Positions 14,636 to 49,765 of a stretch of DNA of 64,000 bases are shown here, one piece after another; position 1 is the first letter of the stretch, and each line of letters begins with the position of its first letter. The notes under the pieces are model-generated. The model saw nothing but the letters and a program-made list of their open reading frames with translations, made no database searches and was not told where the DNA came from. This stretch comes from Streptosporangiaceae bacterium NEAU-GS5 (GTDB lineage: Bacteria > Actinomycetota > Actinomycetes > Streptosporangiales > Streptosporangiaceae). The position numbers and the translations under genes are program-made. The stretch covers positions 28,264-92,263 of the forward strand of contig JAGFNW010000027.1 in the NCBI GenBank assembly GCA_017592665.1. The letters are read 5' to 3'.

Positions 14636-15499
14636 CTAGAGGTAGCCCCAGGACTCGCACATGGGCTTCAGCTCCTCCGGCACCTCGGCGGCGTCCGGCA
14701 ACGGGCGGCCCGGCTGGACGGATCCGGTGCGGATCTTCTCGCGCCAGTCGCCGATGCCTTTGACGAACTCGCCGTGGTCGTGCCGGCCGTACTGGAGCAT
14801 CTCGGGCTCCCACGGCAAGCCGAGGTGCGCGCACAGGCGGCGCAGCTCCTCTTCGGGCCGCTCGGTCAGCGCCTCGTAGCTCAGGGTGATTCCGGGCGTC
14901 ATCCGCCGGGCGTCGTCCATGTATTTGCCGTACTGCGAGATGAGCCGGACCGCCTCTTCCATAGGACGCATTTCGGGATCGGCCTCGTGCCAGGACTGTG
15001 CGATCGACACCGGATGCCGCTGGAGATAGACGGGCCGGGCGTCCGGCCAGCACGTGGAGATCCGGAGCCAGGCGAAGACGTTGCTCGGCGTCTTCTCGAC
15101 CAGGACGCGCTTGCCGCTGCGGGCCAGTTCGCGGTGGAGCATCCGGTCCCAGAGGATGTGCTCGACGTCGCTGTGGTTGTGCCCCAGCGCGGCCAGCGCC
15201 TGCTGCAGGGGGTCGGTCGGCAGGTTCACCGTCATCCGCCGGAAGTGGGTCTCGTGCGGGGCGTGGATCCACGAGTGGCTGTTCAGCAGGACCCGGAGCA
15301 GTGTCGACCCGGATCGTACGGGGGCCAGCACGAAGACGGGGGCGCGCAACAGGCGGTCATCACGCTCGGCCGGAGGCCGCATCTTGTCGCCCGGCATGCG
15401 TGGCGGAAGAAGCGGGACGGGGTTGCGTGGCCGGACTCGCTGAATGGAGTACCCAATCATCCCCTCAAGCGTGATATTGACCGCTTTCTTCCACTTCAT
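14636..15499 (-). CDS. sulfotransferase family protein
   Basis: PAPS 5'-phosphosulfate-binding loop 'VFVLAPVRSGSTLL' and 3'-PB region 'RHPVSIAQSW'. Start uncertain: ATG 15499 (MKWKK), 15397 or 15382. An AT-rich patch at 15420-15540 looks like the promoter. Confidence 0.7.
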   Translation of the reverse strand: MKWKKAVNITLEGMIGYSIQRVRPRNPVPLLPPRMPGDKMRPPAERDDRLLRAPVFVLAPVRSGSTLLRVLLNSHSWIHAPHETHFRRMTVNLPTDPLQQALAALGHNHSDVEHILWDRMLHRELARSGKRVLVEKTPSNVFAWLRISTCWPDARPVYLQRHPVSIAQSWHEADPEMRPMEEAVRLISQYGKYMDDARRMTPGITLSYEALTERPEEELRRLCAHLGLPWEPEMLQYGRHDHGEFVKGIGDWREKIRTGSVQPGRPLPDAAEVPEELKPMCESWGYL

Positions 15500-15760
15500 G
15501 CGGGTGAAGGGTAGTAAGACCTGGTAAAGGGGACGTGAACTGCGCTTGGGAAACCCGTGAGACCTGCCAGAGGGAGTCCTGAGGACAGTATTGTGAGACG
15601 TGGCGACCGTCCGCGCCCAACCTCCGGCGACCCGCCCCAGCCGGGTCACCCTACGGAGGCAAAGGGAGGCTCACCTCTCGGCCGGGGTCGTCATTTCGGT
15701 CGATCGCGCGCCCGCCGCACGGTCGCTGGGGGATCCGCGGCTGGGACGCGGGAGACGATC

Positions 15761-18872: not shown

Positions 18873-18926
18873 GACCCCTCCATTCACTACGATCGTACTA
18901 GTATCGATGTAGTTTACGATGGCGGC
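18873..18926. promoter_or_regulatory. divergent promoter/operator between the FAD monooxygenase and TetR genes, with palindromes
   Basis: Lower-GC 54-bp spacer 'cattcactacgatcgtactagtatcgatgtagtttacgat'. It contains the perfect palindromes TACGATCGTA, ACTAGT and ATCGAT. Confidence 0.45.
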
Positions 18927-21402: not shown

Positions 21403-21593
21403 GTCTGCAGTATTAGCACTCTGGTCAGCCCGATATGGCATGAGGTTCAATGTGCGTACGGCGCGGTCCATCGCCGAGCCCTCAGGCCTGTCCCCAACCA
21501 GGCCATAAATGGGCGAAGGGGGGCATACTCCCGGGCTGAGACTCTGCTGAGACGTCACCGAGCCGGTGTTGGGGACGGCGGACGGAGACGCTC

Positions 21594-29102: not shown

Positions 29103-30170
29103 TCAGTAGCGTGCGATCAGCGCTAGCCCCTGCTCGGTCGCGAGAGCGCCATCGGTGACGAAGCTGACGAAGGCGCCCGTGGCCATCGCCATCTCGATGA
29201 TGTCGTCGACGGCGTCGTGAGTGTCGCCGGCCGGACCGGCGACGAAGTGGTCGCCCTCGAAGTGGCCGGGCGCGTGATAGCTCTCTTCGACGACGAGATG
29301 AGCGCCCCGGCCCTGCTCGACCAGCGGCCAGATCTCGTCGACCCCGGTGACGTACAGCTTCGCGCTGCGGGCCCGGTCGAGCTCCTCCATGACCTGGTCC
29401 TGGCGGCGGGCGACGTAGTCGGCGATCGCCGGCTCGACCACTTCGGCGATCTGGGCCGGGCTCGCGGAGTCGTAGTTGCCGAGGACGCGCTCGGTGACCC
29501 GCTTGCCGAGGCCGCTCACCTCGTCGAGAAAGGCGTGATAGCGGTCCACGCCCAGCACGATGAGGGGCAGGTCGTCGTGCTTGACGACCTGCTCGGTGGC
29601 GTCGGCGACCTGCCGGAAGAACTGCCGGTGCCGCTCGTCGCGATGGGCGGAGGGGTTGATCCCCAGCCCGCCCGGCAACTGCTGAGCGCCGCCCGGACCT
29701 GTATGCGTCAGGGGGAAGCCGTCGCCGTGGATCTCCCGCACCTGGTCGCCGCTGCCGAGGAACATCCTCGTGTCGTTCTCCGACAGCGCGAGCACCCAGT
29801 AGTGCCGGGCCCGGTCGTAGGCGCGGACCAGATCACGGGTGTCGAACGTGTCGGCCAGAACGACCCGCTCGCCCACGGTGAACGGCAGGCTGAACGCGTG
29901 ATGTTCGCCCTCGGCGGCGTACAGTGCCAGCGCGTCGAGAGGGCGGAGGGTCGCCGACATCTCGGCCGCCTGCTCCAGCTCGGCCATGATGCGGCGGGCG
30001 CATTCCTTGTCGGTACGCTCGGTGAGCTGCCGCTCCGCCTCGGCGAGCAGGTTGCCCAGCCGGATGGGATCCTGCGCGTTCTCCGGGGCGTGCCGATGAG
30101 CCGGCATGAGCACGCTGACGGCAGGAGTGCTGTGGGGCTGCTGCAGCTTGATGATCTGATCGCGGTCCAC
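29103..30170 (-). CDS. release-factor-like (baeRF/eRF1-Pelota-like) domain protein, hypothetical
   Basis: 355 aa. Blocks 'VSVLMPAHR', 'TRMFLGSGDQV', 'LIVLGVDRY', 'AKLYVTGVDEIWPLVEQGRGAHLVVEE' and 'DDIIEMAMATGAFVSF' resemble the bacterial eRF1-like fold. Assigned from memory of the family, not a search. Confidence 0.5.
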   Translation of the reverse strand: MDRDQIIKLQQPHSTPAVSVLMPAHRHAPENAQDPIRLGNLLAEAERQLTERTDKECARRIMAELEQAAEMSATLRPLDALALYAAEGEHHAFSLPFTVGERVVLADTFDTRDLVRAYDRARHYWVLALSENDTRMFLGSGDQVREIHGDGFPLTHTGPGGAQQLPGGLGINPSAHRDERHRQFFRQVADATEQVVKHDDLPLIVLGVDRYHAFLDEVSGLGKRVTERVLGNYDSASPAQIAEVVEPAIADYVARRQDQVMEELDRARSAKLYVTGVDEIWPLVEQGRGAHLVVEESYHAPGHFEGDHFVAGPAGDTHDAVDDIIEMAMATGAFVSFVTDGALATEQGLALIARY

Positions 30171-30255: not shown

Positions 30256-31122
30256 TCATGCGCCATCAATGCCGGCGCTATGCCGCAGAACTCGTTGCCC
30301 ATGCGGATCCACCACAGCCGTCACCAGATCGCGCACTTCGGGAGCGTGTAGGTAGTTCCTGACGAGATGAAAGTCGAACCGATGGATCCGCAATGGGTCA
30401 TGTTGCTCCACATTGTCGAAGCGACTGCGGAGATCGAATGGCAGCGCGACCAGATCGCCGACGTCGGCGAGGTTGATCCAGCGGCGTACCCCCGGCGGCC
30501 GCCCGCATCGGTCATTCATCGGACCGGGCTGAAGCCGTTGAAAGATCACCTTGTTCATGCCTAGCGGACTGCCGAGGGTGATCAGAAGGTCGACCTTGGG
30601 ATCGGGCTGTGCCCAGAGCGCCTCGTAGGCTATGACGCTGCCCAAAGAGTGCGCGATCACCACCTGAGCTTGATTGGCGCGGATGGTTTCGGCGACCGTG
30701 GTGCGAGCTCTTATGCGGAACGACTCATCGCGAGGGCTTAGATAGGTGGCGACCTCGCGGACGAATGTGGTCCCCAGCCGCCGAGCGGTCGTGCCGTAGC
30801 GCTCAGTCAGCCATTCGGCGGCCTGCCGCACCTTCGCTGTGGCAGGCCCTTGCGAGGTGTGCGGCACGCCCATGAGCGACTCCACCCAGGCGACCAGCAA
30901 CTCCTGCTCTTCAGGCTCCAGCAGCGTCACGTCGTCCACGCCTTGCGCCGTACCCCGGTGCAACACGTCCGCGTAGTACGACACCGTAACTCGCGGCGCG
31001 GATTCAACCGACAGCCACCTGCTCCAGTCTTGGCTGATGGCCTCAGTAGCGGCATGCACCGAACCATGTTCGATCAGGTAGGAGTAGTTCCCGATCCCAT
31101 GGACCCCGACAATCCGAGTCAC
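30256..31122 (-). CDS. alpha/beta-hydrolase (lipase/esterase-like, PGAP1/DUF676-like) with GxSxG nucleophile
   Basis: 'VGVHGIG' N-terminus, nucleophile elbow 'AHSLGSVIAYEAL', 'ITLGSPLGM'. Lies 85 bp upstream of, and co-directional with, the release-factor-like gene. Confidence 0.7.
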   Translation of the reverse strand: MTRIVGVHGIGNYSYLIEHGSVHAATEAISQDWSRWLSVESAPRVTVSYYADVLHRGTAQGVDDVTLLEPEEQELLVAWVESLMGVPHTSQGPATAKVRQAAEWLTERYGTTARRLGTTFVREVATYLSPRDESFRIRARTTVAETIRANQAQVVIAHSLGSVIAYEALWAQPDPKVDLLITLGSPLGMNKVIFQRLQPGPMNDRCGRPPGVRRWINLADVGDLVALPFDLRSRFDNVEQHDPLRIHRFDFHLVRNYLHAPEVRDLVTAVVDPHGQRVLRHSAGIDGA

Positions 31123-31333
31123 GCCTTCTCCTCGTCTGATATGAGGTGTGCGAATCGACCGTGCGTCATGGTCGAGGCTCGTCTATCCAGAACGAATCAG
31201 GCAATCACCACTCTTACGAAAGTTCATAATTTCCACTCACTTTCAAGGTGCGTCGACCATAATAGAATCCGACCGACTGCGGCGGAAGCGTAGCTGGTCA
31301 TTTCACATCACCTGGTTGTGGAGGTTAGCCAGC
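31123..31333. promoter_or_regulatory. AT-rich divergent promoter region between the alpha/beta-hydrolase operon and the flotillin/STAND operon
   Basis: About 210 bp at roughly 45-50% GC against a background above 70% ('ttacgaaagttcataatttccactcactttcaagg', 'ccataatagaatcc'). RBS GGAGG lies 9 nt before ATG 31334. Confidence 0.5.
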
Positions 31334-32668
31334 ATGAGTGGGGCGTGGGTGGCTTTATTGGTGATTGTGGGACTGCTGTTACTCGCGGCTCTGGTTCTCA
31401 GGCATTGGTGGGAGACTCCGTCGCCGCAGCATGCGGTGGTTTTTCCGGGGAGCGGGTTCGGCAAGAGCGGCGATGCCGCGAATCTACGTGTCGTGGTCGG
31501 GCGTCCGCGACTGGTCCTGCCACCACGCCGCCACCGCGGGCGACTGAATCTCGGGACGCGCAATATTGAAGTGACGCTCGACTGCATGACGAATCAGGCA
31601 TTAAGGGTGAGAGTGGTAATCAGTATCACATATCGGGTCGGTAATTCTCCCGAGCAGATCCGGCGCGCGGCACTGCGATTCCTGAAAGACCCGGAGAGGC
31701 TGCTGGAGGTGGCCGTCAAGAATCTTGTCCAGCACAACGTGCGTACCGTGGTCGGTGAGGGTCCATACACGGCCCTGGTCCTGAATCTGGGAGAAGTCAA
31801 CGGAAAGGTCAAGGAGCGCATCCGCCAGGACTTTCAAGCCTTCGGCCTGGTGCTCGAGAACGCGGGCTTCGTCACCATCGATGATGTGGACGGGCACGGC
31901 ACGGCGTTACGCCGAGCGGCGGAGGTGGAGGCCGAGCTCAAGAAGGTGGAAGCCGACCAGCGGTTGCTGGTCGAAACGGCCCGCGCGCGAGCCGAGGCCG
32001 CGGCGGAAGTGCACGATCACAACGTGCGCTCCCACGCACTGAGCCTGGAGATCGCCACGCTTGAGGCGGATCTGGAGCGTAAGAAGCAGGAGCTCGCGGC
32101 TCGAAACATTCAGCTCGACAAACAGGACGAGTTGAGTAAGGCCCAGATCGATCACAAGATCCAGGTCCTCCATGTCGACACACGCAGCTATGAAGTCAAA
32201 CGGCGTATTGATATGGAGAGGGCCGAGCGCGAGGCCCGGAATGCGACGGACATCGAGTTGCGTCACGCGCTCGACCGGGCCGACGCGGAGAAGGGGATGG
32301 TGGAGGCCAAAGCCGAGGCCGTCCGGATTAAGGAGCGAGTCCAGGGCCTCACACCCGCGGAGGCGCAGGCGTTGATCACCCTTGAGCTCGCCGGGAAAAT
32401 GGACAAGATAGCTGCCGCGGCGAAGGTGGAGCTACCCAGCCTGGAACGGGTGATCACGTCGAGCAGCGACTCCAAGACCCTGCTCGACAACCTGATCGGA
32501 TTCGGGCTCCCGATCGCCGAGATGGTGGGCGAGATGTTCAGCCGAATGCGGGAGGCCGACCCGGCCAAGACGATCACGACGGTCGTTCAGCCGGAGATCC
32601 AGCCGCCCACGAAGCATGCCGATGAGGGACAGGCCGACGGGCGTGACGACATGCCCTCCTCCCAATGA
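31334..32668 (+). CDS. flotillin-like SPFH/band-7 domain membrane protein
   Basis: N-terminal TM 'MSGAWVALLVIVGLLLLAALVL', SPFH core ('LRVVVGRP...ALRVRVVISITYRV...QDFQAFGLVLENAGFVTIDDV') and a long Glu/Ala/Arg-rich coiled coil, as in FloT/flotillins. ATG at 31334 in track ORF 31148..32668. Confidence 0.85.
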   Translation: MSGAWVALLVIVGLLLLAALVLRHWWETPSPQHAVVFPGSGFGKSGDAANLRVVVGRPRLVLPPRRHRGRLNLGTRNIEVTLDCMTNQALRVRVVISITYRVGNSPEQIRRAALRFLKDPERLLEVAVKNLVQHNVRTVVGEGPYTALVLNLGEVNGKVKERIRQDFQAFGLVLENAGFVTIDDVDGHGTALRRAAEVEAELKKVEADQRLLVETARARAEAAAEVHDHNVRSHALSLEIATLEADLERKKQELAARNIQLDKQDELSKAQIDHKIQVLHVDTRSYEVKRRIDMERAEREARNATDIELRHALDRADAEKGMVEAKAEAVRIKERVQGLTPAEAQALITLELAGKMDKIAAAAKVELPSLERVITSSSDSKTLLDNLIGFGLPIAEMVGEMFSRMREADPAKTITTVVQPEIQPPTKHADEGQADGRDDMPSSQ

Positions 32669-35600
32669 CCACGGGTCCGACGGCACGGGCAATTGTGATC
32701 GCGATCACGGGGTTCGTCTCGGACCGCTGGTCGGCCCTGCCGTTCGCCGCCGCCCGCGCGTACGCCATACGGCGCGCCCTGCTCTCGCACGGATATCACT
32801 GCGTGACGCACATCACCGCGAGACTCACGTCCGCCGAGTTCGGCACGCTGGTACGGAACGAACTTCGCCGCGCCGGGCCAGATGACACCCTTCTTATCCA
32901 TATCCTCACGCATGGCGACATTGCCAACAAAAGCGTCCTGTACGCCCTGGGCAGCGATGGCCTCCGTCACCCCGACACGGACGTAGAGGCGTGGATCAGG
33001 ACAGTACAGAACGTCGACGGCCACCCCTTCACCCTGTTCTTGCTCGATATGTGCTACGGCGGGACGATGGCCCGGCTCTCGTGGCAGGCGAGCATCGGCC
33101 GCGCCGACACGCGAGCCTGGGTCATCGCCGCCTGCCAGCCGGACGAGGCGGCTTTCGACGGCCGCTTCAGCCAGGCCGTGGCCACCGTGCTCGACCTGCT
33201 GAGACAGGGCGACCTCGAGATCGACCCAAGCCACGCGTATGTGCCGTTCGGCGCGATCGCCCGCGCCATCCGGCAGGAGGTGAACCGGCTCGCAGGAGAT
33301 GGCCTGCGCCAACAGGTCACCGCCACGAGCGAAGATCCCGGAGATGAGGCCGCGGCGCCTCCCTTTTTCCGCAACACGGCTCACACACGCAGACGCCTCC
33401 CGGAACCGGCGAGCCAGGGGCCGGCCGACGGGGGTGCCTGGATCGTGGCGTACTTCGCCGACCAGGCGGCCGGAGCGGCGGTCTCCGGCGAAGGGGGGGC
33501 GGACCGGCCGAGAGCGGGCCGTTTCACTGGACGCAGAGATCAGCTCGGTCATCTGGCACCCTGGGTCAACCGCCTGACGGCAGGTGATCTCGCCGTGGTC
33601 ACCGGTGGCCCTGGCAGCGGCAAATCGGCACTGCTCGGCGTGCTGGTGTGCGCCGCCCATCCACTGTTGTACGCGACGGCACGGGATCTGCTGGCCGAGG
33701 TGACCCCCCTGCCCGCGCCTGTGCTCGACGGGTTCGCCGCGGTGCACGTGGCACAACGCGGGCTCGCCACGGTGTGCGACGCCATCGGACGGCAGCTGGG
33801 GCTACCCGCGGATCTCTCGGCCGACGAGCTGATCGAGCGGGTGCTTGAACGCGACCGCCCACCGGTATTGGTGATCGACGGGCTCGACGAGGCCGACGAC
33901 GGGCCGGCCATCATGCGGCGGCTGCTGCTTCCCCTGGTGAGCACGCGACGTCCCGACGGGTGGGCCGCAGCGCGGCTGCTGGTAGGCAGTCGCACATACG
34001 AGGAGTTCGAGCCGCTGCTCGAACGCGCTCGCGTCGCCGGCAATCTCATCGACCTTGACGTCGTGCCACCTGAGGACCTGCGCAAGGACCTTGCCACGTA
34101 CATATTTCGGTTGCTTCAGGACGAGCCGGCCTACCTGCGGCACGGCGCCGTGCAGGGCGCGTTCGCCGGCGCCGTGGCGGAGACTCTCACAGCGCCGCAT
34201 GGAAAAGGGCGGCAGCAGGGGGAGTTCCTCGTCGCCGGACTGTACACACGTCATTTCGTCGCCGCACACGCTCACGCTCCCATGACCGACCCAGATCGGG
34301 CCCGGGCGCTGGGACAGCGCGCGCCGAGAACGCTGGCCGAGGTGTTCGAGTTGGACATCGCGGATCGGCCTGCCTTGCGCGAGCTGCTGACCGTTCTCGC
34401 CACGGCGCGTGAACCCGGCATGCCAGTCGGCGTACTGTTCCGGATGATCACCGCCGGGCAACGTCCAGGCAGGGGCGCGAGGACAGGAACGAGCGCTGAG
34501 GTGACGACGGGCTCGCCGGCAGAAACGGGCGCCGCCGCGGACCGCATGACCATCGGACGAGTACGCGCGATGCTGCGCGAGGGTCGGCATTACCTGCGTC
34601 AGTCGACCGACACGCGGGACGGCACCACCCTCTATCGCCTATTTCACCGCAGCTTGATCGACCACCTCGCCGTGCCGGGGATAGCAGGCGACAGCCTGGA
34701 GGCGATGCTCGGGATACTGGGGCCGGCGTCCGCCCGTGACTGGGAGATGGCCGAGCCATACCTGCTCGATCACGCATGGGCATACGCGGTCGCCGCCGGA
34801 CGCGCGGCCGAGTTGCTCGATGATCCCGAATACCTGCTGAATCTCACTTCCGGGCCGCTGACGGCCGTCCTGCGAGAAGCCGGAGATCTCCCGCTCCTGT
34901 CAGCGTTCGCCGAAGTCCCGCCGATCGGGGCGGCGCCGCTGTCGGAACGGCGGTATGCGCTGGCCCTCGCGGCCGCCCGGGCGGACCGCACGCAATTCGC
35001 GGCACGCGCCGCGCGGCCACCCACCACGCAGCCGCTGCCGTGGCAACCTCTCTGGTCGAAGGGAACGCCCGTCGCGGCTGGATCACCGAGTGCGTCCACG
35101 GCCTCGCCTGCGTCCGTGCCGGCTCCGCCCTCGCCGGCCGGCGATTTCGAGCTGGCCAAGAGCAGAAGGAAACAGGAGGTCCAGGCGCTGGCCACGGCCT
35201 CGATCGAAGGGCGGCCCGTTCTCGCGGCGGCCGGCGACGACGGCCGAATACAGCTTTGGGATCTCGCCTCCCGGAAGGTCTCACTGCCACCGCTCACCGG
35301 CCACGCCGGGTCCGTGAATGCGATCGCCTGCTTCACGACGGGCGGACGGGCGAAGGCCGTCACGGCCGGATCCGACGGCACCTTACGGATATGGGACCTG
35401 GCCAGGCGGCAGTCCGAGCACATCTGGAACCTTGGTCAGGAGAGTTTTCTGCGCGGCGTGGCGTGCGCCTGGGTCGGCGACCAACAGGTAGCGGTAGTGG
35501 CCAGCGGTGACGGCTGGCTTCGCATGTGGGACGTGGTCCAGGGACGGCCCGTCGGCGGGCGGCTGGGCGAGCGGCCGGGCATTCTCACTGGTGTGGCCTG

Positions 35601-36738
35601 CGCGCAGGCTCACGGCCGTGCCGTCGCCGTCACCACGGACGAGGACGGGGAGGTGTCCGCAGTCGATCTCGGGAGTGGCGAGGTGATCGGCCGGCACGAG
35701 TATGCGCACGACGGTTCCGCGCGCGCGGTGGCCTGCACCGCGGCGGCCGATCCCCCGCTGGTCGTGACGACCGGCGACGGCGGCGTGATCCGTGTCTGGA
35801 AGCTGACCGACACTCTTGTCCCCCTCTTCAAGCTCACGGGACATCGGGACACGGTCGAGGCGGTGGCGTGCGCCACGCTTGGCGGCCGGGACGTGGTGAT
35901 CAGCGGCGACGTCGACGGCAGGGTCATCGTCTGGGATGTGGCGGAGGGGGTTCAGATCTACCAGGCTCGGCTGCGCCGCGGCTTGGTTCGGGCCGTGGCC
36001 GGCACCCTTCTCGGCACACGACCCTTCGTCCTGACCGCCGCTTCCGGGGGCGCGCTGGCCGGGCGGGATTTGAGCGAAGCGCTGTCCGGCCGGCAAGCAG
36101 CCGAGCGATCGACCGGCAGCGCGGCGGCTGCGGCCCCTCGTGGCGTCCAGATCACCCGGCTCGACGTCTTGAGTGATGAGACCGTGCGCCTCGTCTTCGC
36201 GCACGCCGGCGCCATCATTGTGGACCCGCGAACTGGTAAGGCCATCGACGGCGAGGTGGCCATGCGGGAACCCGCCGCAAATCCGCGGCAGGACGATGAC
36301 TCCCCCGTTGCCGCGACATCCGCGACGTTCTCCTTGCATGGTCGCACTATGGTGGCCGAGGTCGGTGACGACCCTCGGACCCTGCGGCTACGCGAAGCGA
36401 CATCCCACGCTCCATCACGCCCCGTTGATGATCATGGGCGCCCGTTGGGCCGTCACGAGAGCCGCATAACGACGGTGTCGGTCGCCAAGCCGGTTGGTGG
36501 CGCACCGCCCCTGCTGTTCAGCGGTGACGTGGACGGCACCGTGCGGGTCTGGGATCCGGTGCACGGGCGTGCAATGCCGGGCTTCACCTTGCCGGGGGAG
36601 ATCGTCGGTATCACGCCGCTGCGAGGGGAACTGGTCCTGGTCGACATCGGCGGTGAGATCATCGCGCTGCACCGTGCCACGACCACCGAGCACCGCGCAT
36701 CCGCCGATGGAACGGGACCCAGAGCGTCGGTCACATAA
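32665..36738 (+). CDS. caspase-like (peptidase C14) / NACHT ATPase / WD40 beta-propeller STAND protein
   Basis: 1356 aa. ATG overlaps the flotillin stop (ATGA 32665-32668). Caspase His 'IHILTHGD' (H83) and Cys 'FLLDMCYGG' (C130). NACHT Walker A 'VVTGGPGSGKS' (~aa 315) and Walker B 'PVLVIDGLDEADD' (~aa 405). From about aa 835 onward, at least 12 WD40 repeats ('RIQLWDL', 'TLRIWDL', 'WLRMWDV', 'VIRVWKL', 'RVIVWDV', 'TVRVWDP'). Confidence 0.9.
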   Translation: MTTGPTARAIVIAITGFVSDRWSALPFAAARAYAIRRALLSHGYHCVTHITARLTSAEFGTLVRNELRRAGPDDTLLIHILTHGDIANKSVLYALGSDGLRHPDTDVEAWIRTVQNVDGHPFTLFLLDMCYGGTMARLSWQASIGRADTRAWVIAACQPDEAAFDGRFSQAVATVLDLLRQGDLEIDPSHAYVPFGAIARAIRQEVNRLAGDGLRQQVTATSEDPGDEAAAPPFFRNTAHTRRRLPEPASQGPADGGAWIVAYFADQAAGAAVSGEGGADRPRAGRFTGRRDQLGHLAPWVNRLTAGDLAVVTGGPGSGKSALLGVLVCAAHPLLYATARDLLAEVTPLPAPVLDGFAAVHVAQRGLATVCDAIGRQLGLPADLSADELIERVLERDRPPVLVIDGLDEADDGPAIMRRLLLPLVSTRRPDGWAAARLLVGSRTYEEFEPLLERARVAGNLIDLDVVPPEDLRKDLATYIFRLLQDEPAYLRHGAVQGAFAGAVAETLTAPHGKGRQQGEFLVAGLYTRHFVAAHAHAPMTDPDRARALGQRAPRTLAEVFELDIADRPALRELLTVLATAREPGMPVGVLFRMITAGQRPGRGARTGTSAEVTTGSPAETGAAADRMTIGRVRAMLREGRHYLRQSTDTRDGTTLYRLFHRSLIDHLAVPGIAGDSLEAMLGILGPASARDWEMAEPYLLDHAWAYAVAAGRAAELLDDPEYLLNLTSGPLTAVLREAGDLPLLSAFAEVPPIGAAPLSERRYALALAAARADRTQFAARAARPPTTQPLPWQPLWSKGTPVAAGSPSASTASPASVPAPPSPAGDFELAKSRRKQEVQALATASIEGRPVLAAAGDDGRIQLWDLASRKVSLPPLTGHAGSVNAIACFTTGGRAKAVTAGSDGTLRIWDLARRQSEHIWNLGQESFLRGVACAWVGDQQVAVVASGDGWLRMWDVVQGRPVGGRLGERPGILTGVACAQAHGRAVAVTTDEDGEVSAVDLGSGEVIGRHEYAHDGSARAVACTAAADPPLVVTTGDGGVIRVWKLTDTLVPLFKLTGHRDTVEAVACATLGGRDVVISGDVDGRVIVWDVAEGVQIYQARLRRGLVRAVAGTLLGTRPFVLTAASGGALAGRDLSEALSGRQAAERSTGSAAAAAPRGVQITRLDVLSDETVRLVFAHAGAIIVDPRTGKAIDGEVAMREPAANPRQDDDSPVAATSATFSLHGRTMVAEVGDDPRTLRLREATSHAPSRPVDDHGRPLGRHESRITTVSVAKPVGGAPPLLFSGDVDGTVRVWDPVHGRAMPGFTLPGEIVGITPLRGELVLVDIGGEIIALHRATTTEHRASADGTGPRASVT

Positions 36739-36802
36739 TCCCTGTCGGGCCTACCTCAGCTATTGGCACGACCGCCGCGGACCAGCACGAACCGTCCTTG
36801 GC

Positions 36803-38308
36803 TCATTGTGCGAGTTCCACCGTCGGCATCCCGGTGAGGGCGATGAGAGCTTCGGCGAAGGCGTTGAGCGCTGCGGGGGAAACGTCGCCGGGCGACACGT
36901 CGGGTGAGATCTGCACGGTCAGGCCTCCTCGCGCATTGGCGCGTATGCCGATCCGCGTCGCGTCGAGGCCGACGATGACGCGGAACCAGGTTCGAACAGT
37001 TTCGTCCAGATCGTCGGTGAGCGGCAGGGGTGCCATCCGGTCGGCACCGACCGACTCAAGGATCGTCCACTCCTGTCCGCCGAGCTCGTCCAGTAACCGG
37101 GGGATGTCAGTGCTGACGACATAAAGGCAGCGCATCCCGACCCGAGACGCCGACCCCGTATGACAACCGGCCACCAAGGACCCCACCCCGAACGACGTCA
37201 GGGCCGCATTCACCCGAGGTGACTTGACGAAGTCCTTCGGCAGTCGCCAGGCAACGCTCAGTTCGATCAATTTGGTATCGGCGGAGTGGTGTATGGAGGC
37301 GCCGTTCACCACCCTGCCGTCGAGGGCGGGCGCGGCCATCGCGATCACCTGCTCGGCCACCGAATCGAGGTCTCCTGCTCTGAGGGCACTCAAGACCGGT
37401 CCCCACGCATCTGCATGTAGGTGGCCGAGCAACTCCCAGGCACACCCGCTGAGAATCGCTTGACGGGTGCGTTCACGGTGTTCCCGGGTCTCGGACCCGG
37501 GACAGGCCGCGACCAGGCCTTTGATCAGGCATGCCGCCAGTGGACCGAGATACGACCCGATTTCCGCGACGGGCACGCCGTAGTCACGGGCGCGGCGATG
37601 CAGCGTGTCCAGATCGCAGTCGGCCTGCGCGATCCAACCCTCGACGCGCAGGCGTTCCATGGCGCTGCCGGTGCCGTAAAGCGAGGGCAGCGCGCGAGCC
37701 AACCGCGTCAGTCCCTCCGCATGCTCGCGGATCTGGGTCAGGACGGCCGAGCGCCTGGCTTCGCGGCGCAGTTCGCTATGCGGATCACGCTCGATGACCG
37801 CGGACTCCACTCCCACGATCTCCAGGAAGCCGCCTGCCAACGTCGTCGCCCACTGCTCGACGATCGGAGCGATCTCGAAGCCGTGCCGTCTGACCTGCTC
37901 GTAGTCGAGATCAGCGAGTAACCTGCGAACGCGTCCGTCGAACTCGTTACGCAGCGTGGCCTCGTCCGTGAGCGTGCCGATGTCGTATTCCTCGACCCAT
38001 TCGATCAGTTCCTCGTCGTCGACGAAGGCCAGCCGCACCAGCGCGGTGACGGACAGTTGGACGAGCGCGCCGTCTCGCAGCCGAATCTGCGGGATCGTCG
38101 ACGAGTGGCGTACGACGCTCCGACTGAAGGTGACGATTTCGAGATGGCCGAGCAGCGGAACCCCGGACAGCGGGCCATGACGCCCCGGGCCGAGGACTCG
38201 GCGGCGAGGCCGGCCGTTGTGTTTGACCACCACACGTTCTGACGCGTCAACGGGGAATGCGCGCCTCGGCCATTCCTCCCAGGTGATCAGTAACCCAAGT
38301 GACATCAT
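36803..38308 (-). CDS. soluble SPFH/band-7-like domain protein with large C-terminal helical region
   Basis: N-terminal region 'VVVKHNGRPRRRVLGPGRHGPLSGVPLLGHLEIV...IRLRDGALVQLSVTALVRLAFVD...GGFLEIVGVESAVIERDP' follows the SPFH consensus. No TM segment. Convergent with the STAND gene, 64-bp gap. Confidence 0.6.
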   Translation of the reverse strand: MMSLGLLITWEEWPRRAFPVDASERVVVKHNGRPRRRVLGPGRHGPLSGVPLLGHLEIVTFSRSVVRHSSTIPQIRLRDGALVQLSVTALVRLAFVDDEELIEWVEEYDIGTLTDEATLRNEFDGRVRRLLADLDYEQVRRHGFEIAPIVEQWATTLAGGFLEIVGVESAVIERDPHSELRREARRSAVLTQIREHAEGLTRLARALPSLYGTGSAMERLRVEGWIAQADCDLDTLHRRARDYGVPVAEIGSYLGPLAACLIKGLVAACPGSETREHRERTRQAILSGCAWELLGHLHADAWGPVLSALRAGDLDSVAEQVIAMAAPALDGRVVNGASIHHSADTKLIELSVAWRLPKDFVKSPRVNAALTSFGVGSLVAGCHTGSASRVGMRCLYVVSTDIPRLLDELGGQEWTILESVGADRMAPLPLTDDLDETVRTWFRVIVGLDATRIGIRANARGGLTVQISPDVSPGDVSPAALNAFAEALIALTGMPTVELAQ

Positions 38309-38372
38309 CGCTCATTTCACACGCGGCCAGTGAGACCGGCCCGGCGGCGCTCACCGGAACGGTTTCGCCTCG

Positions 38373-39683
38373 TCACATTTCCCGGGTGTACAGATCGTCA
38401 TCTGCCATGCGCCGCAACCGGCGTGATCGCTGCTCCTGGTAGTACCGGTCGTCGGCGAGCTCGAGCCGGGCCATGTCGCGCATGTGCCGTCCGCGCTCGC
38501 GCATTCTTGTCCGCGCATTCGCGATCTTCTCGTCCTTGGTGAGGATGCGCAGCTCGGAGGCTTCCTCCAGCTCGGCCTCCCGGGCGGCGAGCAGATTCTC
38601 GTAAGGGCTTTTCCCGCCACTTCCCATGAGCGCCTTCCCGGCCACCGGAAGAACGTCGACCAGAATGATCAGCAAGGCGAGCACGAGATGGCGGAAGAAC
38701 ACCGAAGTGTGCTCACCACTCAGCGTCGACAACGCCTCCATACGAATGAGCAGTCCGTCGACCTCACGGTTGGCCGACTCCTCCAACGCGATTCTCTTGT
38801 CACGGTCGGCCTCGAGTTCGCGTTGTTTCAGACGCAACCTCTCTTCCTCTTCTTTGAGCGAGCGATCCTCGGCTGCTATCTTCTGGTCGATGCCCTTCAG
38901 CGTCGCGTTGAGATCGCGGACCGTATCCTGCTGGTCTCGCATCTGACTCTTCTTCTGTAGGGCCGAAGGGCCCTCGCCGGGAAGATGAGTGTTACTCTTG
39001 CCATCGATCTCATCGTCAAGCCTGGTCTGCAGCTTGTCTAGCTGTTCACCGGCATCCTTGATCTTTTGCTCCTGTCCCGCATGCTGATGCCGCAATTGCC
39101 GCAGGCGTTCCGAGGGCTGTCCGGCCGCCTTTATCTGCTGGTCCAGCGCGTTTATCTGCTGTGTTAGGTCGCTTCGGCCGACTGCCCTGTCGGCCTCGTC
39201 CATCCGCTCCCTCCTGATGGCGGCGACCTCGGCGGTTACCTCGGGCTCGAAGATGACCAGGATGAGCGGCTCGGAGATCGTTAGCCCCAAGATCACTGAC
39301 AGGAAAAGACGTGGAGCCAACGCCCCGATTTTCGCCTTACCGGACATCTTGGACCGATAGCTAGATACGAGCCACCGGTCAAGATTGAATATCGCGACAG
39401 CCCACAGCGCGCCAACGATCGCATTCACGGCGAAAGATGTCTTGAACGCCAAGGAGACAGAAACCACCATCGCCGTGCCGGCCATCACTGCCGTGGTGAC
39501 GACCCCGCCCCCCAATCCCTGATATCGGGTCGTCTCGGCTCGTGGACACCGGTCGAGTATGTCGCGGTCAGCACCGCTCGCAAAGATCATGAATCGCTCG
39601 ACGAAGCCGCGAGGGCCCTTCAAGCGGACCGGGGTGATGGATGAACGCATATCGGCGGACCCATTCACCGAATTGAGCGACAT
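38373..39683 (-). CDS. DUF4407-like membrane protein with long coiled coil
   Basis: N-terminus 'FASGADRDILDRCPRAETTRYQGLGGGVVTTAVMAG...FNLDRWLVSSY' matches the DUF4407 pattern (LSGA...P.ER.R...G..IL). Then 3 TM and about 200 aa of Glu/Arg/Gln coiled coil. Start uncertain (three in-frame Met). Confidence 0.65.
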   Translation of the reverse strand: MSLNSVNGSADMRSSITPVRLKGPRGFVERFMIFASGADRDILDRCPRAETTRYQGLGGGVVTTAVMAGTAMVVSVSLAFKTSFAVNAIVGALWAVAIFNLDRWLVSSYRSKMSGKAKIGALAPRLFLSVILGLTISEPLILVIFEPEVTAEVAAIRRERMDEADRAVGRSDLTQQINALDQQIKAAGQPSERLRQLRHQHAGQEQKIKDAGEQLDKLQTRLDDEIDGKSNTHLPGEGPSALQKKSQMRDQQDTVRDLNATLKGIDQKIAAEDRSLKEEEERLRLKQRELEADRDKRIALEESANREVDGLLIRMEALSTLSGEHTSVFFRHLVLALLIILVDVLPVAGKALMGSGGKSPYENLLAAREAELEEASELRILTKDEKIANARTRMRERGRHMRDMARLELADDRYYQEQRSRRLRRMADDDLYTREM

Positions 39684-40035
39684 GAAAGTCCCGTCAATCG
39701 TCGAAGGCGCATCCTATTGCGCAGGACAGTCTAGGCGGATAAGACCCCATCGTGCGCAGCCATAGGAATTCGGATCGGGCGGAGGACTGTTGTCCCCGGT
39801 GTGGGTGATGGGCTGGAACAGGACTGACCATGGAGCGGAGGCACCCGCCAAACCGACTCCTGTGGTGCGTGCTATTTCGCCGCGCCGCAACGCATCGAGC
39901 CACGACGCTCACCCACGCCGAGCACTCGGTCCAATTCCCGGCGCTCTACGCTTTGGAATCCCTCGAAACGCCCGCGGCCGCCGCACGACGCCGATCGACC
40001 AAAGAGAGACCTTGCGGGGTGATCTACCGGGTCAC

Positions 40036-47519: not shown

Positions 47520-47912
47520 TTGTCATTCGTGAGGTACGGAATATGGGCGGGCGCCGTCGCGGTGTCGCTTCTCGCCGGATGCGCGAGCGCACAGGCCCCC
47601 GCCGCGACGCGCGTCGCCGAGGGCTTCTACGCCGCCGTCGCCGCCGCGGACGGCGCCGTGGCATGCGCCTACCTGACACCGTCCGCCGCTGAGTCGCTGG
47701 CCGACGACGGCGACTGCGCGAGCGCCTTGCTCGACCTGAAACTCACGGCGACCCCCGCACCCGCCCGGACCGAGATCTGGGGAGATGAGGCGCAGGTCAA
47801 GCTCGGCGGCGACACGCTCTTCCTGCACCGCAGCGGCCAGGGGTGGCGGATCCGTGCGGCGGGTTGCCGGCCGATGGGCGTGCGGCCTTACCAGTGCGAA
47901 ATCGAGGGCTGA
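47520..47912 (+). CDS. putative lipoprotein
   Basis: Signal peptide with lipobox 'SLLAGCAS'. Start uncertain. Confidence 0.5.
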   Translation: MSFVRYGIWAGAVAVSLLAGCASAQAPAATRVAEGFYAAVAAADGAVACAYLTPSAAESLADDGDCASALLDLKLTATPAPARTEIWGDEAQVKLGGDTLFLHRSGQGWRIRAAGCRPMGVRPYQCEIEG

Positions 47913-48222
47913 GATGCGGACCATGTTCGTGATCACGCTTGCAGGATCCGGTGAGCTGGGGCGGCTATGTGGCCTCTGCGGATTTCTGGAACCGGACGTT
48001 GCAGAACTGGCAGTCGGAATTCCTTGCCGTCCTGTCCATGGTCGCGTTGTCGATCTATCTGCGCCAGCGCGGATCACCCGAGTCGAAGCCGGTCGGCACC
48101 CCGCACGAAACGACGAGCGAGGAGAATTAGGGCAGCGCCACCGCGTGTCGACGCTTTCCACGAGGCTGGTAGGGAGGGCAAGCCGAGTGTGCCGGCATGA
48201 AAGGTGGGGGAAGGGCTGGATT

Positions 48223-48783
48223 ATGCGCGATGAGACCAATGACCGCACGCCCGCGACGGCTGTTGTCGTCATGGACATGCTGAACACCTACGACCACGAT
48301 GACGCCGAACTTCTGGCCATGAACGTGGAACCGATGGTCCCCTCCCTGTCCGAACTCATTCAGCGCGCTCGGACCACCGAAGGCGTCCAGCTTGTCTTCG
48401 TAAACGACTCTCACGGCGACTTCACGGCCACGCGGGACGACATCGTGGCTCGTGCGCTCACCGGCAGGCGCCCGGATCTCGTGAAGCCGTTGCTGCCGAT
48501 AGATGACTGCGCGTTCCTGCCGAAGGTTCGGCACAGTGCCTTCTTCGGCACGCCGCTTGAATATCTGCTGCGCCGCGAGAGGATCGAGACGGTTGTGCTC
48601 GCTGGACAGGTGACGGAGCAATGCGTCCTTTACAGCGCACTAGACGCTTATATCCGGGAATTTGCCGTCCGAGTGGCTTCCAACTGCGTCGCCGCCATCC
48701 ATTCGAATCTGGGTAAAGCGGCTCTGGAGATGATCGAGCGGAACATGCGCGGCGAAGTCCGCCCGGCGGAGGCATGCCTCTGA
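48223..48783 (+). CDS. isochorismatase-family cysteine hydrolase
   Basis: 'AVVVMDMLNTY...VFVNDSHGDF...VVLAGQVTEQCVLYSALDA' covers the catalytic D/K/C triad region. ATG at 48223. Confidence 0.8.
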   Translation: MRDETNDRTPATAVVVMDMLNTYDHDDAELLAMNVEPMVPSLSELIQRARTTEGVQLVFVNDSHGDFTATRDDIVARALTGRRPDLVKPLLPIDDCAFLPKVRHSAFFGTPLEYLLRRERIETVVLAGQVTEQCVLYSALDAYIREFAVRVASNCVAAIHSNLGKAALEMIERNMRGEVRPAEACL

Positions 48784-48854
48784 ACGGCCGGGCATGAGCC
48801 CGAAGTGGCCCGGTGCACGCCCCCCATGACGGGAATCCACAATGATGGACCTTC

Positions 48855-49271
48855 ATGGACGCAGCCGGTGCACGAGATCGAGTGGCCGCGGCCCAGGTGG
48901 CCCGCCTGGCAACCGTTGGCGCCGACGGCATCCCCCACCTTGTGCCGGTGACATTCGCGCAGCAGGAAGACCACATCGTCATCGCGGTCGATCACAAGCC
49001 GAAGAAGTCGGTGAATCTCCGGCGGCTGCGCAACATCGCCGAGAACCCGCACGTCTGCATCCTCGTCGATCACTACGCCGACGACTGGACCCAGCTGTGG
49101 TGGGCGCGGGCGGACGGCATCGCCACCATCCACGAGAACGACGAGCGCAGTGACGAGGCGCTTGCCCTGCTCGTCGCCAAATACGACCAATATCGAGAGC
49201 ACATCCCCGAGGGGCCGATCATCGACATCGGGGTCACCCGGTGGACCGGCTGGTCCTACACGGCGGAATGA
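48855..49271 (+). CDS. PPOX-class (pyridoxamine 5'-phosphate oxidase-like) F420-dependent protein
   Basis: 'VARLATVGADGIPHLVPVTF...NPHVCILVDHYADDW' is typical of the TIGR03618-like split-barrel family. Confidence 0.75.
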   Translation: MDAAGARDRVAAAQVARLATVGADGIPHLVPVTFAQQEDHIVIAVDHKPKKSVNLRRLRNIAENPHVCILVDHYADDWTQLWWARADGIATIHENDERSDEALALLVAKYDQYREHIPEGPIIDIGVTRWTGWSYTAE

Positions 49272-49692
49272 CACATGCTCCCCATCAACCCCGACGCACC
49301 CCCACTAGCCACCGGCCGCGACGCCGACACCTAGGACGCACCGCCACGGGCGACCGCGTCCTCGCGATCGTGCTCGGCCCGCTGGAACGTCAGACGCCCC
49401 TTCGGCCGGCAGTGGCGTCGATGTTGAGCGCCGAGTCCAAGGAGCCGGTGATGAGACGGAGCGGGCAGGGAAGTCCGTGACGGCGATGCTCACGGTCGGC
49501 GGCCTTGCGCTTACCCGGGTTGTCTGCCGCGCGAGGACCAGAAGATCGCGCTGCACCTGCCCGGCACCACGCCCTGCCGGCCGGATCGTCTTCCACGGCG
49601 AACACCTGCCGGCATCCGGCCTGTTCGCCGAGCCCACCCGCCCTGGCCGTGCTTTACCTGGCCAGGGGTCTTACCTTGCCGATCTGCGGCCG

Positions 49693-49765
49693 TGCCCCCG
49701 GCGGGACTTGAACCCGCACTCGAGCCCTTTTAAGGGGCTTGCCTCTGCCATTGGGCTACGGGGGC
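49693..49765 (-). tRNA. class-I tRNA-like gene with anticodon UAA (reads UUA), 73 nt, discriminator A73, no encoded CCA
   Basis: Manually folded from the sequence: 7-bp acceptor stem GCCCCCG/CGGGGGC, T arm GCGGG-TTCAAGT-CCCGC, anticodon stem AGCCC/GGGCT with loop CUUAAAA, 5-nt variable loop. The short variable arm is atypical for tRNA-Leu. Confidence 0.55.

What the first reader, a model, noticed from the sequence alone, without database searches (positions are those of the whole stretch)
31123..31333. AT-rich divergent control region in a high-GC genome
About 210 bp at roughly 45-50% GC, against a background above 70%, with A/T tracts ('agttcataatttccactcactttcaagg', 'ccataatagaatcc'). It separates the hydrolase operon from the flotillin/STAND operon.

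Such AT islands are preferred binding sites for the nucleoid-associated silencer Lsr2 in actinomycetes. They are hallmarks of horizontally acquired, conditionally silenced loci.

Similar but shorter AT patches occur at 15420-15540 (sulfotransferase promoter), 21403-21590 (cupin / N-terminal-motif gene divergent promoter) and 18873-18926.
Basis: seen in the sequence. Interest (0 to 1): 0.5.

Follow-up and report, generated by a model that had tools for sequence, protein, structure and literature searches.

The report
AT-rich divergent promoter in defence island
The flagged stretch is a real but ordinary AT-rich promoter region lying between a putative death-effector hydrolase gene and the operon for its putative caspase-type activator, inside a 9.5-kb gene island of foreign-looking composition; binding by the silencer Lsr2 is plausible but untested.

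Summary
Window 31123-31333 is a 211-bp non-coding gap at 51.7% GC, against 69.7% for the window. It is the lowest 211-bp value in the 64 kb. Its core (31219-31268) is 36% GC, the lowest 50-bp value.

The window comes from the actinomycete Streptosporangiaceae bacterium NEAU-GS5. The gap separates an alpha/beta-hydrolase gene (minus strand) from an SPFH / caspase-STAND-WD40 operon (plus strand).

The two sides are probably one system. Relatives of this hydrolase lie next to a STAND gene of this kind in 7 of 8 loci examined, usually in the same operon. Published work shows such caspases cleave these hydrolases into death effectors.

A CATAAT box sits 68-73 nt upstream of the SPFH start in all three known copies of the cassette (7 of 5000 shuffles). 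This marks a probable -10 element. Its opposite strand reads TATTAT, so one box might fire both ways.

The five genes at 30256-39683 have GC3 of 0.77 against 0.89 for their neighbours, which points to recent acquisition.

The region meets published sequence descriptors of Lsr2-bound DNA. Those descriptors are not sufficient for binding, and occupancy cannot be tested here.

Verdict: a normal promoter region of a known kind, of low interest in itself.

The parts
31123..31333 (.). 211-bp divergent intergenic region at 51.7% GC
   Evidence: There is no Rfam match and no credible small ORF.
31180..31270 (.). AT-rich core at 42.9% GC. It contains the lowest 50-bp GC window of the 64 kb (31219-31268, 36%).
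31258..31263 (+). CATAAT, the probable -10 element of the SPFH / caspase-STAND operon, 70 nt upstream of the ATG
   Evidence: It is the only hexamer shared at the same distance (68-73 nt) in the three cassette copies. Shuffles reach this in 7 of 5000 trials, and block shuffles in 4 of 5000.
31263..31268 (+). TAGAAT, an alternative overlapping -10 candidate (5 of 6 matches), with TTTCAA 16 nt upstream
   Evidence: It is not conserved in the other two loci.
31259..31264 (-). TATTAT on the opposite strand of CATAATA. It is a candidate -10 for the hydrolase transcript and forms a symmetric bidirectional arrangement.
   Evidence: The configuration is the one described by Warman et al.. Inferred only.
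31271..31285 (+). GACCGACTGCGGCGG, a block shared (13 of 15) with the Acrocarpospora upstream region, just downstream of the -10 box
   Evidence: It is weak on its own: 36 of 500 shuffles reach the same score.
31320..31324 (+). GGAGG ribosome-binding site of the SPFH gene
31128..31133 (-). GAGGAG ribosome-binding site of the hydrolase gene
31155..31175 (.). TCGACC-N9-GGTCGA palindrome. A third half-site, TCGACCAT at 31253-31260, abuts the -10 box. Possible operator; significance is weak.
   Evidence: Three TCGACC sites are found against 0.56 expected. They are not conserved in relatives.
30256..31122 (-). Alpha/beta-hydrolase of 288 aa (AHSLGS Ser159, Asp220/223, His252; R56-G57). Putative protease-activated effector.
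31334..32668 (+). SPFH / Band 7 membrane protein, 444 aa
32665..36738 (+). Caspase-like / AAA_16 STAND NTPase / WD40 protein, 1357 aa. Its start overlaps the SPFH stop by 4 nt.
36803..38308 (-). Second, divergent SPFH-like protein of about 501 aa
38373..39683 (-). DUF4407 membrane protein of 436 aa. The start agrees with the NCBI annotation.
39728..39733 (-). TAGACT, the probable -10 element of the DUF4407 / SPFH-like operon, 44 nt upstream of the start
   Evidence: The same box at the same distance occurs in Acrocarpospora.

Best explanation
The region is the promoter and 5'-leader DNA shared by two divergent transcription units of one horizontally acquired conflict (defence or cell-death) island.

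Rightward unit. A housekeeping-sigma-type promoter with the -10 box CATAAT (31258-31263) and no good -35 probably starts transcription near 31270. That gives a leader of about 63 nt, then the SPFH gene and the translationally coupled caspase-STAND-WD40 gene.

Leftward unit. The alpha/beta-hydrolase gene is transcribed from a promoter that is not resolved. The best candidate is the mirror-image -10 box (TATTAT) on the other strand of the same AT box. That would make a symmetric bidirectional promoter.

Functional link. By analogy with published systems, the hydrolase is a latent effector that the caspase domain cleaves when the STAND-WD40 sensor is triggered. The gap would then set the relative expression of effector and activator.

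AT-richness. It has two sources: the usual need for a meltable promoter, and the lower GC of the whole island. It makes the site a good candidate for binding by Lsr2, but that is not shown.

Shown: composition, gene boundaries, conservation of the -10 box, hydrolase-STAND linkage, atypical GC3. Inferred: transcription start sites, bidirectionality, the protease-effector mechanism, any silencing.
For: - The GC minimum of the whole window ends exactly at the conserved box.
- CATAAT lies 70, 73 and 68 nt from the start codon in the window, Acrocarpospora catenulata and Sinosporangium siamense, in upstream regions that otherwise do not align. It is the only such shared hexamer; shuffles reach this in 7 of 5000 trials.
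- The cassette's second operon shows the same logic: TAGACT at -44 in two genomes.
- Ribosome-binding sites and start codons on both sides are clear.
- Hydrolase relatives are adjacent to a (caspase-)AAA_16 STAND gene in 7 of 8 loci, counting the window. In 4 of them the two genes form an operon with a 4-nt overlap.
- The Planotetraspora partner is homologous over its full length to the window's STAND protein (35% identity, E=2e-176).
- Kaur et al. 2020 report that a caspase domain in these systems is always accompanied by a neighbouring alpha/beta-hydrolase gene.
- Evans et al. 2025 show that the caspase cleaves the hydrolase zymogen at R|G sites into a toxic form.
- The catalytic residues of the hydrolase and R56-G57 are conserved. 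The caspase His and Cys motifs (THGD, DMCYGG) are present.
- Island GC3 is 0.77 against 0.89 for the neighbours.
Against: - No consensus sigma-70 promoter was found by the strict scan. Candidate -35 hexamers match at most 3 of 6.
- Only three cassette copies exist, so conservation rests on few sequences.
- The leftward promoter has no comparative support. The upstream regions of hydrolase relatives do not align.
- The other two cassette copies have no adjacent hydrolase, so the hydrolase may be a separate acquisition.
- The second R|G cleavage site was not found.
- Direct homology to the characterised Lysobacter hydrolase could not be tested.
- No transcription data are available.
Confidence: 0.7

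Rival explanations
1. One reading: the AT island is chiefly a nucleation site for the xenogeneic silencer Lsr2. Lsr2 would polymerise over both promoters, and perhaps bridge to the second AT-rich patch at 38.6-39.8 kb, keeping the island silent until it is counter-silenced.
For: - The host is an actinomycete, and Lsr2 is described as conserved throughout the phylum (abstract).
- At 51.7% GC the region is well below the 58% GC probe that Streptomyces Lsr2 bound strongly, and below the 65% mean of bound sites.
- It has the window's highest density of AT-rich cores and AT-rich 20-mers. The second-highest density is at 39050-39800, the other end of the cassette.
- The sub-58% GC zone spans about 840 bp (30986-31822). 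The Lsr2-like protein CgpS gives peaks 500-850 bp wide, centred on a GC drop near the start site.
- The island looks foreign by GC3.
Against: - There are no binding or expression data.
- Both source papers state that a GC drop and AT stretches are neither sufficient for nor unique to bound sites.
- A/T runs here are short: the longest pure A/T run is 7 bp and overall GC is still above 50%.
- An Lsr2 gene could not be looked for, because only 64 kb of the genome is available.
- This view is compatible with the best explanation rather than exclusive of it.
Confidence: 0.35
2. The gap is mainly a junction left by two independent acquisitions: the hydrolase gene on one side and the four-gene SPFH/STAND/SPFH-like/DUF4407 cassette on the other. 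On this view its AT-richness and divergent layout are historical accidents. Each gene simply has its own promoter and there is no functional coupling.
For: - The cassette occurs without an adjacent hydrolase in the two other genomes.
- DNA similarity to the Acrocarpospora cassette begins only at 31321, the ribosome-binding site, plus the short -10 block.
- The closest hydrolase relatives (73% and 70% identity) are in genomes where the cassette is absent or only 37% identical.
- Divergent orientation is atypical for this hydrolase family.
Against: - Hydrolase-STAND adjacency in 7 of 8 loci makes chance juxtaposition here unlikely.
- All five genes share the same depressed GC3 (0.74-0.80), which suggests a common recent origin.
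- No repeats, integrase or attachment-site scars mark a junction.
Confidence: 0.2
3. The gap hides a dedicated element, such as a structured leader or riboswitch, a small RNA, a small protein gene or a repressor operator, that is the true reason for its unusual composition.
For: - The TCGACC-N9-GGTCGA palindrome, plus a third half-site abutting the -10 box.
- A direct repeat, AATCACCACTC / AATTTCCACTC, with 25-nt spacing.
- A 15-nt block just downstream of the -10 box is shared with Acrocarpospora.
Against: - No Rfam family matches, even at E<=1.
- The predicted leaders fold no better than shuffles: z-scores are -1.16, +0.77 and -0.29, and -0.23 for the leftward leader.
- Small ORFs of 25-27 aa have no support.
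- The half-site excess is marginal: 3 found against 0.56 expected. The sites are not conserved in relatives.
- No regulator gene lies inside the island.
Confidence: 0.08

Closest known systems
Targets of Lsr2-family xenogeneic silencers (Streptomyces venezuelae Lsr2, Gehrke et al. 2019; Corynebacterium glutamicum CgpS, Wiechert et al. 2020)
   Same: A distinct GC drop at a promoter in a high-GC actinomycete. AT-rich cores and AT-rich 20-mers are present. The setting is a divergent gap in foreign-looking DNA. The width of the low-GC zone (about 840 bp) is like class 1 CgpS peaks.
   Different: No occupancy or derepression data exist. A/T runs are short. The same promoter is AT-rich in genomes where the cassette is compositionally native.
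Symmetric bidirectional promoters with overlapping -10 elements (Warman et al., bioRxiv 10.1101/2020.01.31.928960)
   Same: CATAATA reads as a -10 element on both strands (CATAAT and TATTAT). Positions 2 and 6 of the two hexamers base-pair with each other. It lies between divergent genes in acquired DNA, where such promoters are reported to be enriched.
   Different: No start sites have been mapped. The leftward leader would be about 130 nt long. Any A-N3-T is symmetric by definition, so the sequence evidence is weak.
Caspase / alpha/beta-hydrolase protease-effector modules of STAND conflict systems (Kaur et al. 2020; Evans et al. 2025, Lysobacter capsici LcCaspase-LcHydrolase)
   Same: [quoted passage not shown] The catalytic residues are intact. 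An R-G site is conserved near residue 56. The host is an actinobacterium.
   Different: Here the effector is divergent from the protease gene rather than co-transcribed with it. An SPFH gene leads the protease operon. A second SPFH-like gene and a DUF4407 gene accompany it. The second R|G site was not found. There was no hit to PADLOC models.

Membership tests
Lsr2 / xenogeneic-silencer target site | Local GC well below the genome mean, with the drop close to the promoter or start site | tested here: met
   51.7% against 69.7%. The 50-bp minimum (36%) at 31219-31268 ends at the predicted -10 box.
Lsr2 / xenogeneic-silencer target site | AT-rich core (5 of 6 nt A/T) and AT-rich 20-nt stretches, as defined by Gehrke et al. 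2019 | tested here: met
   5 cores and 6 such 20-mers lie in the gap. 31151-31650 holds 12 cores and 10 20-mers, the maximum in the window (criteria).
Lsr2 / xenogeneic-silencer target site | The host encodes Lsr2 | not testable with these tools
   Only 64 kb of the genome is available. The host is in Streptosporangiaceae, and Lsr2 is reported as conserved across actinobacteria.
Lsr2 / xenogeneic-silencer target site | In vivo occupancy, and derepression when the silencer is removed | not testable with these tools
   This needs ChIP-seq and RNA-seq.
Housekeeping-sigma (sigma-70 / HrdB-type) promoter | A -10 hexamer with A at position 2 and T at position 6 | tested here: met
   CATAAT is positionally conserved in the 3 loci. 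TAGAAT overlaps it.
Housekeeping-sigma (sigma-70 / HrdB-type) promoter | A TTGACA-like -35 hexamer 16-18 nt upstream | tested here: not met
   The best match is 3 of 6, and the strict scan found nothing. From my own knowledge, a weak -35 is common in actinomycete promoters.
Housekeeping-sigma (sigma-70 / HrdB-type) promoter | A mapped transcription start 6-8 nt downstream of the -10 box | not testable with these tools
   No transcript data are available.
Symmetric bidirectional promoter (Warman et al.) | -10 elements on opposite strands offset by 1 nt, so that positions 2 and 6 of the two hexamers pair | tested here: met
   CATAAT at 31258-31263 (+) and TATTAT at 31264-31259 (-) (definition).
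Symmetric bidirectional promoter (Warman et al.) | Divergent start sites about 18 bp apart | not testable with these tools
   No transcript data are available.
Caspase / alpha/beta-hydrolase protease-effector module | The hydrolase gene neighbours a gene with a caspase-like domain | tested here: met
   In the window the two are separated by the gap and the SPFH gene. Relatives are adjacent to a STAND gene in 6 of 7 other loci. The caspase domain is supported by NF047832 and by Peptidase_C14 hits in homologues.
Caspase / alpha/beta-hydrolase protease-effector module | Intact catalytic residues in the protease (His, Cys) and in the hydrolase (Ser, Asp, His) | tested here: met
   THGD and DMCYGG motifs are present in the alignment. 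AHSLGS, ADxGD and His252 are invariant in 11 sequences.
Caspase / alpha/beta-hydrolase protease-effector module | Two conserved R|G cleavage sites in the hydrolase (Evans et al. 2025) | tested here: inconclusive
   R56-G57 is present and G57 is at least 90% conserved. No second R-G site was found in the expected region.
Caspase / alpha/beta-hydrolase protease-effector module | Sequence homology to the characterised LcHydrolase and LcCaspase | not tested
Horizontally acquired genomic island | Composition and codon bias deviating from the host's | tested here: met
   GC3 is 0.74-0.80 against a mean of 0.887 (p=4e-5). Island GC is 65.6% against 71.4% and 69.4% in the flanks.
Horizontally acquired genomic island | Mobility marks: integrase, flanking direct repeats, tRNA target | tested here: not met
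   None is present in the window. A tRNA-Ala flanks the cassette only in Sinosporangium.
Horizontally acquired genomic island | An empty site in a close relative | tested here: inconclusive
   The flanking hibernation-factor gene has no close orthologue (best 45%, Chloroflexi), so no empty site could be found.

The most novel reading that the evidence does not exclude
The island is an undescribed, membrane-associated variant of the caspase-STAND / alpha/beta-hydrolase death system. In it, two SPFH scaffold proteins and a DUF4407 membrane protein have been recruited. The effector has also been transcriptionally uncoupled from its protease, through a single symmetric bidirectional -10 box sitting in the genome's sharpest local GC dip. 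Lsr2-type silencing of one short site would then gate both the effector and its activator at once.
Probability: 0.15. Interest if true: 0.5.

Novelty: new member of a known kind. Interest (0 to 1): 0.25.

Why it matters
The gap is a textbook case: a promoter-bearing GC dip in acquired DNA of a high-GC actinomycete. It offers no new principle.

Its practical value is as a handle on the genes around it. It pinpoints where to map start sites and where to test Lsr2 binding. The island it controls is rare: the four-gene cassette is known from three Streptosporangiaceae genomes only. That island couples a caspase-STAND-WD40 sensor-protease, a probable zymogen hydrolase effector, two SPFH proteins and a DUF4407 protein.

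If silencing were shown, it would add toxic defence modules to the classes of genes that actinomycete xenogeneic silencers keep in check.

Tried and rejected
- Rfam scans found nothing except a distant tRNA. This covered the region at E<=1 and the whole window at gathering thresholds.
- The strict sigma-70 consensus scan found no promoter. It found one terminator-like hairpin inside the SPFH coding region (31418-31439), at chance level.
- Folding of the predicted leaders gave no energy excess over shuffles.
- The small ORFs in the gap are not credible.
- The upstream extension of the SPFH ORF to GTG 31148 was rejected on codon-position GC, the homologues' N-termini and the ribosome-binding site. 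No alternative start matched a database protein.
- PADLOC gave no meaningful defence-system hit.
- Aligning hydrolase upstream regions from relatives showed no conservation.
- A search for repeats flanking the island, or for copies of the gap elsewhere in the window, found nothing.
- The empty-site test through the flanking hibernation-factor gene failed for lack of close orthologues.
- Plasmid searches found no copy of the cassette.
- A genome-collection scan found only the same two relatives.
- The supplement of Evans et al. is not held, so the Lysobacter sequences could not be compared.
- A literature search on DUF4407 found nothing useful.

Full report
**Observation**

The window is 69.7% GC. 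The stretch 31123-31333 (211 bp) is 51.7% GC. All 211-bp windows average 69.7% with sd 4.6%. Only 0.1% of them are lower, and those all overlap this stretch. The lowest, 50.2%, starts at 31058.

A 50-bp rolling profile shows a sharp core. 31180-31270 is 42.9% GC. 31219-31268 is 36%, the lowest 50-bp value in the 64 kb. Both quoted A/T strings are present.

The boundaries are exact.

**Is it non-coding, and what flanks it?**

- On the minus strand a 288-aa ORF starts at GTG 31122, preceded by GAGGAG.
- On the plus strand the SPFH gene starts at ATG 31334, nine nt after GGAGG.
- The mechanical ORF extension back to GTG 31148 has codon-position GC of 0.44/0.53/0.58, against 0.70/0.41/0.78 in the gene proper. 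The two homologues also start at the position equivalent to 31334.
- There is no Rfam match, even at E<=1.
- The 25-27-aa ORFs in the gap have no support.

**Genes around the gap** (Pfam, NCBIfam)

| Coordinates | Strand | Product |
|---|---|---|
| 30256-31122 | - | weak alpha/beta-hydrolase, PGAP1-like |
| 31334-32668 | + | SPFH / Band 7 |
| 32665-36738 | + | 1357-aa protein: caspase-like N-terminus, AAA_16 STAND NTPase, WD40 repeats |
| 36803-38308 | - | second, weak SPFH-like protein |
| 38373-39683 | - | DUF4407 |

Exact-sequence look-up places the window in Streptosporangiaceae bacterium NEAU-GS5, an actinomycete.

**Is the locus foreign?**

- The five genes have GC3 of 0.74-0.80. The mean for 47 other genes in the window is 0.887 (Mann-Whitney p=4e-5).
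- The island is 65.6% GC, against 71.4% and 69.4% in the flanks.
- The SPFH protein has only two close relatives among 5.8 billion clusters: Acrocarpospora catenulata (67% identity) and Sinosporangium siamense (37%). A scan of 185,579 species genomes found the same two.
- Both carry the same four-gene cassette (SPFH, STAND-WD40, SPFH-like, DUF4407) in unrelated contexts. In Sinosporangium it lies beside a tRNA-Ala gene.
- The window has no integrase, no flanking repeats and no adjacent tRNA.
- An empty-site test failed. The flanking ribosome-hibernation-factor gene has no close orthologue; its best matches are about 45% identical and come from Chloroflexi.

Acquisition is therefore supported by composition and by patchy distribution, but not by mobility marks.

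One qualification matters. In the other two genomes the cassette has host-like GC3 (0.86-0.95), yet its upstream region is still 52-59% GC. The AT-rich promoter is a property of the cassette, not a marker of recent arrival.

**Promoters**

The strict consensus scan found none. The three SPFH upstream regions do not align in general. Similarity of the window to Acrocarpospora starts at 31321.

They do share CATAAT at 70, 73 and 68 nt from the start codon. It is the only hexamer shared at equal distance (within 5 nt). Shuffles produce any such hexamer in 7 of 5000 trials, and block shuffles in 4 of 5000. I take this as the -10 element of the SPFH / STAND operon. The start site would then be near 31270 and the leader about 63 nt.

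Candidate -35 hexamers match at most 3 of 6. The GC minimum lies directly upstream of this box and includes it.

The convergent operon shows the same pattern: TAGACT lies 44 nt upstream of the DUF4407 start in both the window and Acrocarpospora. That start matches the NCBI annotation.

The leftward (hydrolase) promoter has no comparative support. The best candidate is TATTAT on the opposite strand of CATAATA. Positions 2 and 6 of the two hexamers pair with each other. This is the configuration Warman et al. describe for bidirectional promoters, with start sites 18 bp apart, including in actinobacteria and preferentially in acquired DNA. Because A-N3-T is always self-symmetric, this is suggestive only.

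Predicted leaders fold no better than shuffles.

**Are the two sides linked?**

Relatives of the hydrolase are numerous in actinomycetes. In seven other loci examined:

- It is the downstream gene, with a 4-nt overlap, of a (caspase-)AAA_16 STAND gene in four: Planotetraspora, Acrocarpospora, Nonomuraea and Actinosynnema.
- It is convergent with such a gene in two: Spongiactinospora and Streptomyces.
- It is solitary in one: Sinosporangium.

The Planotetraspora partner aligns with the window's STAND protein over its full length (35% identity, E=2e-176).

Kaur et al. 2020 noted that a caspase domain in these conflict systems always has a neighbouring alpha/beta-hydrolase gene. Evans et al. 2025 showed that a Lysobacter caspase cleaves such a hydrolase at two R|G sites, which unleashes toxicity.

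The window's hydrolase keeps AHSLGS (Ser159), Asp220/223, His252 and R56-G57. A second R-G site was not found. The caspase His and Cys motifs are present.

The gap thus most likely lies inside one system, between the effector and its activator. The divergent layout is the unusual arrangement for this pair.

**Lsr2**

Gehrke et al. 2019 found the following for Streptomyces venezuelae:

- Bound sites average 65% GC in a 72.4% GC genome.
- 222 of 223 sites have an AT-rich 20-mer, and 214 of 223 have an AT-rich core.
- Lsr2 binds a 58% GC probe strongly and a 70% GC probe barely.

Applied to this window, 31151-31650 has 12 cores and 10 such 20-mers. That is the window's maximum; the means are 1.6 and 1.5. 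The second hot spot is 39050-39800, at the other end of the cassette.

Wiechert et al. 2020 found that the Lsr2-like protein CgpS binds GC drops near start sites, with peaks 500-850 bp wide. Here the sub-58% zone spans 30986-31822.

The sequence prerequisites are therefore met. Both papers stress that they are not sufficient. Occupancy, silencing and even the presence of lsr2 in this strain cannot be checked with 64 kb of sequence.

**Verdict**

The finding is real and accurately located, but it is an ordinary kind of feature: an AT-rich divergent promoter region in a compositionally foreign island. The Lsr2 reading is plausible but untested. The 'hallmark of acquisition' reading is only partly right.

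The surrounding island is more interesting than the gap. It is a rare SPFH / DUF4407-associated variant of the caspase-STAND / hydrolase module.

Noticed in passing
window 31334-39683; L001 1186-9064; L002 10001-17991: A four-gene cassette (SPFH, caspase-STAND-WD40, SPFH-like, DUF4407) arranged as two convergent operons. It was found in only three Streptosporangiaceae genomes and matches no PADLOC model. In Sinosporangium it lies beside tRNA-Ala (L002 9505-9578).
   Followed up: partly
L008 1829-6816; L009 2123-6795; L011 2189-6786; L012 2240-6798; L010 6001-11938; L013 6001-11267: Relatives of the window's hydrolase are almost always next to a large (caspase-)AAA_16 STAND gene. Usually they are translationally coupled downstream of it. 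In L010 a SIR2_2 gene takes the operon position instead.
   Followed up: partly
window 39728-39733 (minus strand); L001 upstream of 9064: A CCTAGACTG block holding a TAGACT -10-like box lies exactly 44 nt upstream of the DUF4407 start in both the window and Acrocarpospora.
   Followed up: partly
window 38640-39800: This is the second-densest cluster of AT-rich cores and AT-rich 20-mers in the window. It lies mostly inside the 5' half of the DUF4407 coding region, at the far end of the island from the flagged gap.
   Followed up: no
window 29103-30170 (minus strand): A baeRF3 / AOC03_06830-family ribosome hibernation factor gene with native GC3 (0.90). Its closest relatives are only 44-46% identical and are mostly from Chloroflexi (Anaerolineae, Ktedonobacteria), not from actinomycetes.
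   Followed up: no
window 18874-18926: A 53-bp divergent gap at 50% GC between a minus-strand gene starting near 18873 and a plus-strand gene starting at GTG 18927. From its N-terminal sequence I take the plus-strand gene to be a TetR-like regulator. The gap contains the perfect palindrome TACGATCGTA and the adjacent palindromes ACTAGT and ATCGAT, which look like an operator.
   Followed up: no
window 31155-31175 and 31253-31260: TCGACC-N9-GGTCGA palindrome, plus an inverted TCGACCAT copy abutting the -10 box. The 8-mer TCGACCAT occurs 10 times in the window against 2.3 expected, mostly in coding DNA.
   Followed up: partly
window 47785-49765: A gene with low GC3 (0.70, at 47785-48783) lies near tRNA-Leu(taa) at 49692-49765. 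This is possibly another small acquired segment.
   Followed up: no
window 31334-32668: No protein with any of five tested start codons for the SPFH gene is in the 15-billion-sequence collection, although its neighbours are (MBO3750730, MBO3750732, MBO3750734). The deposited annotation may use another start, or may treat the gene differently.
   Followed up: partly
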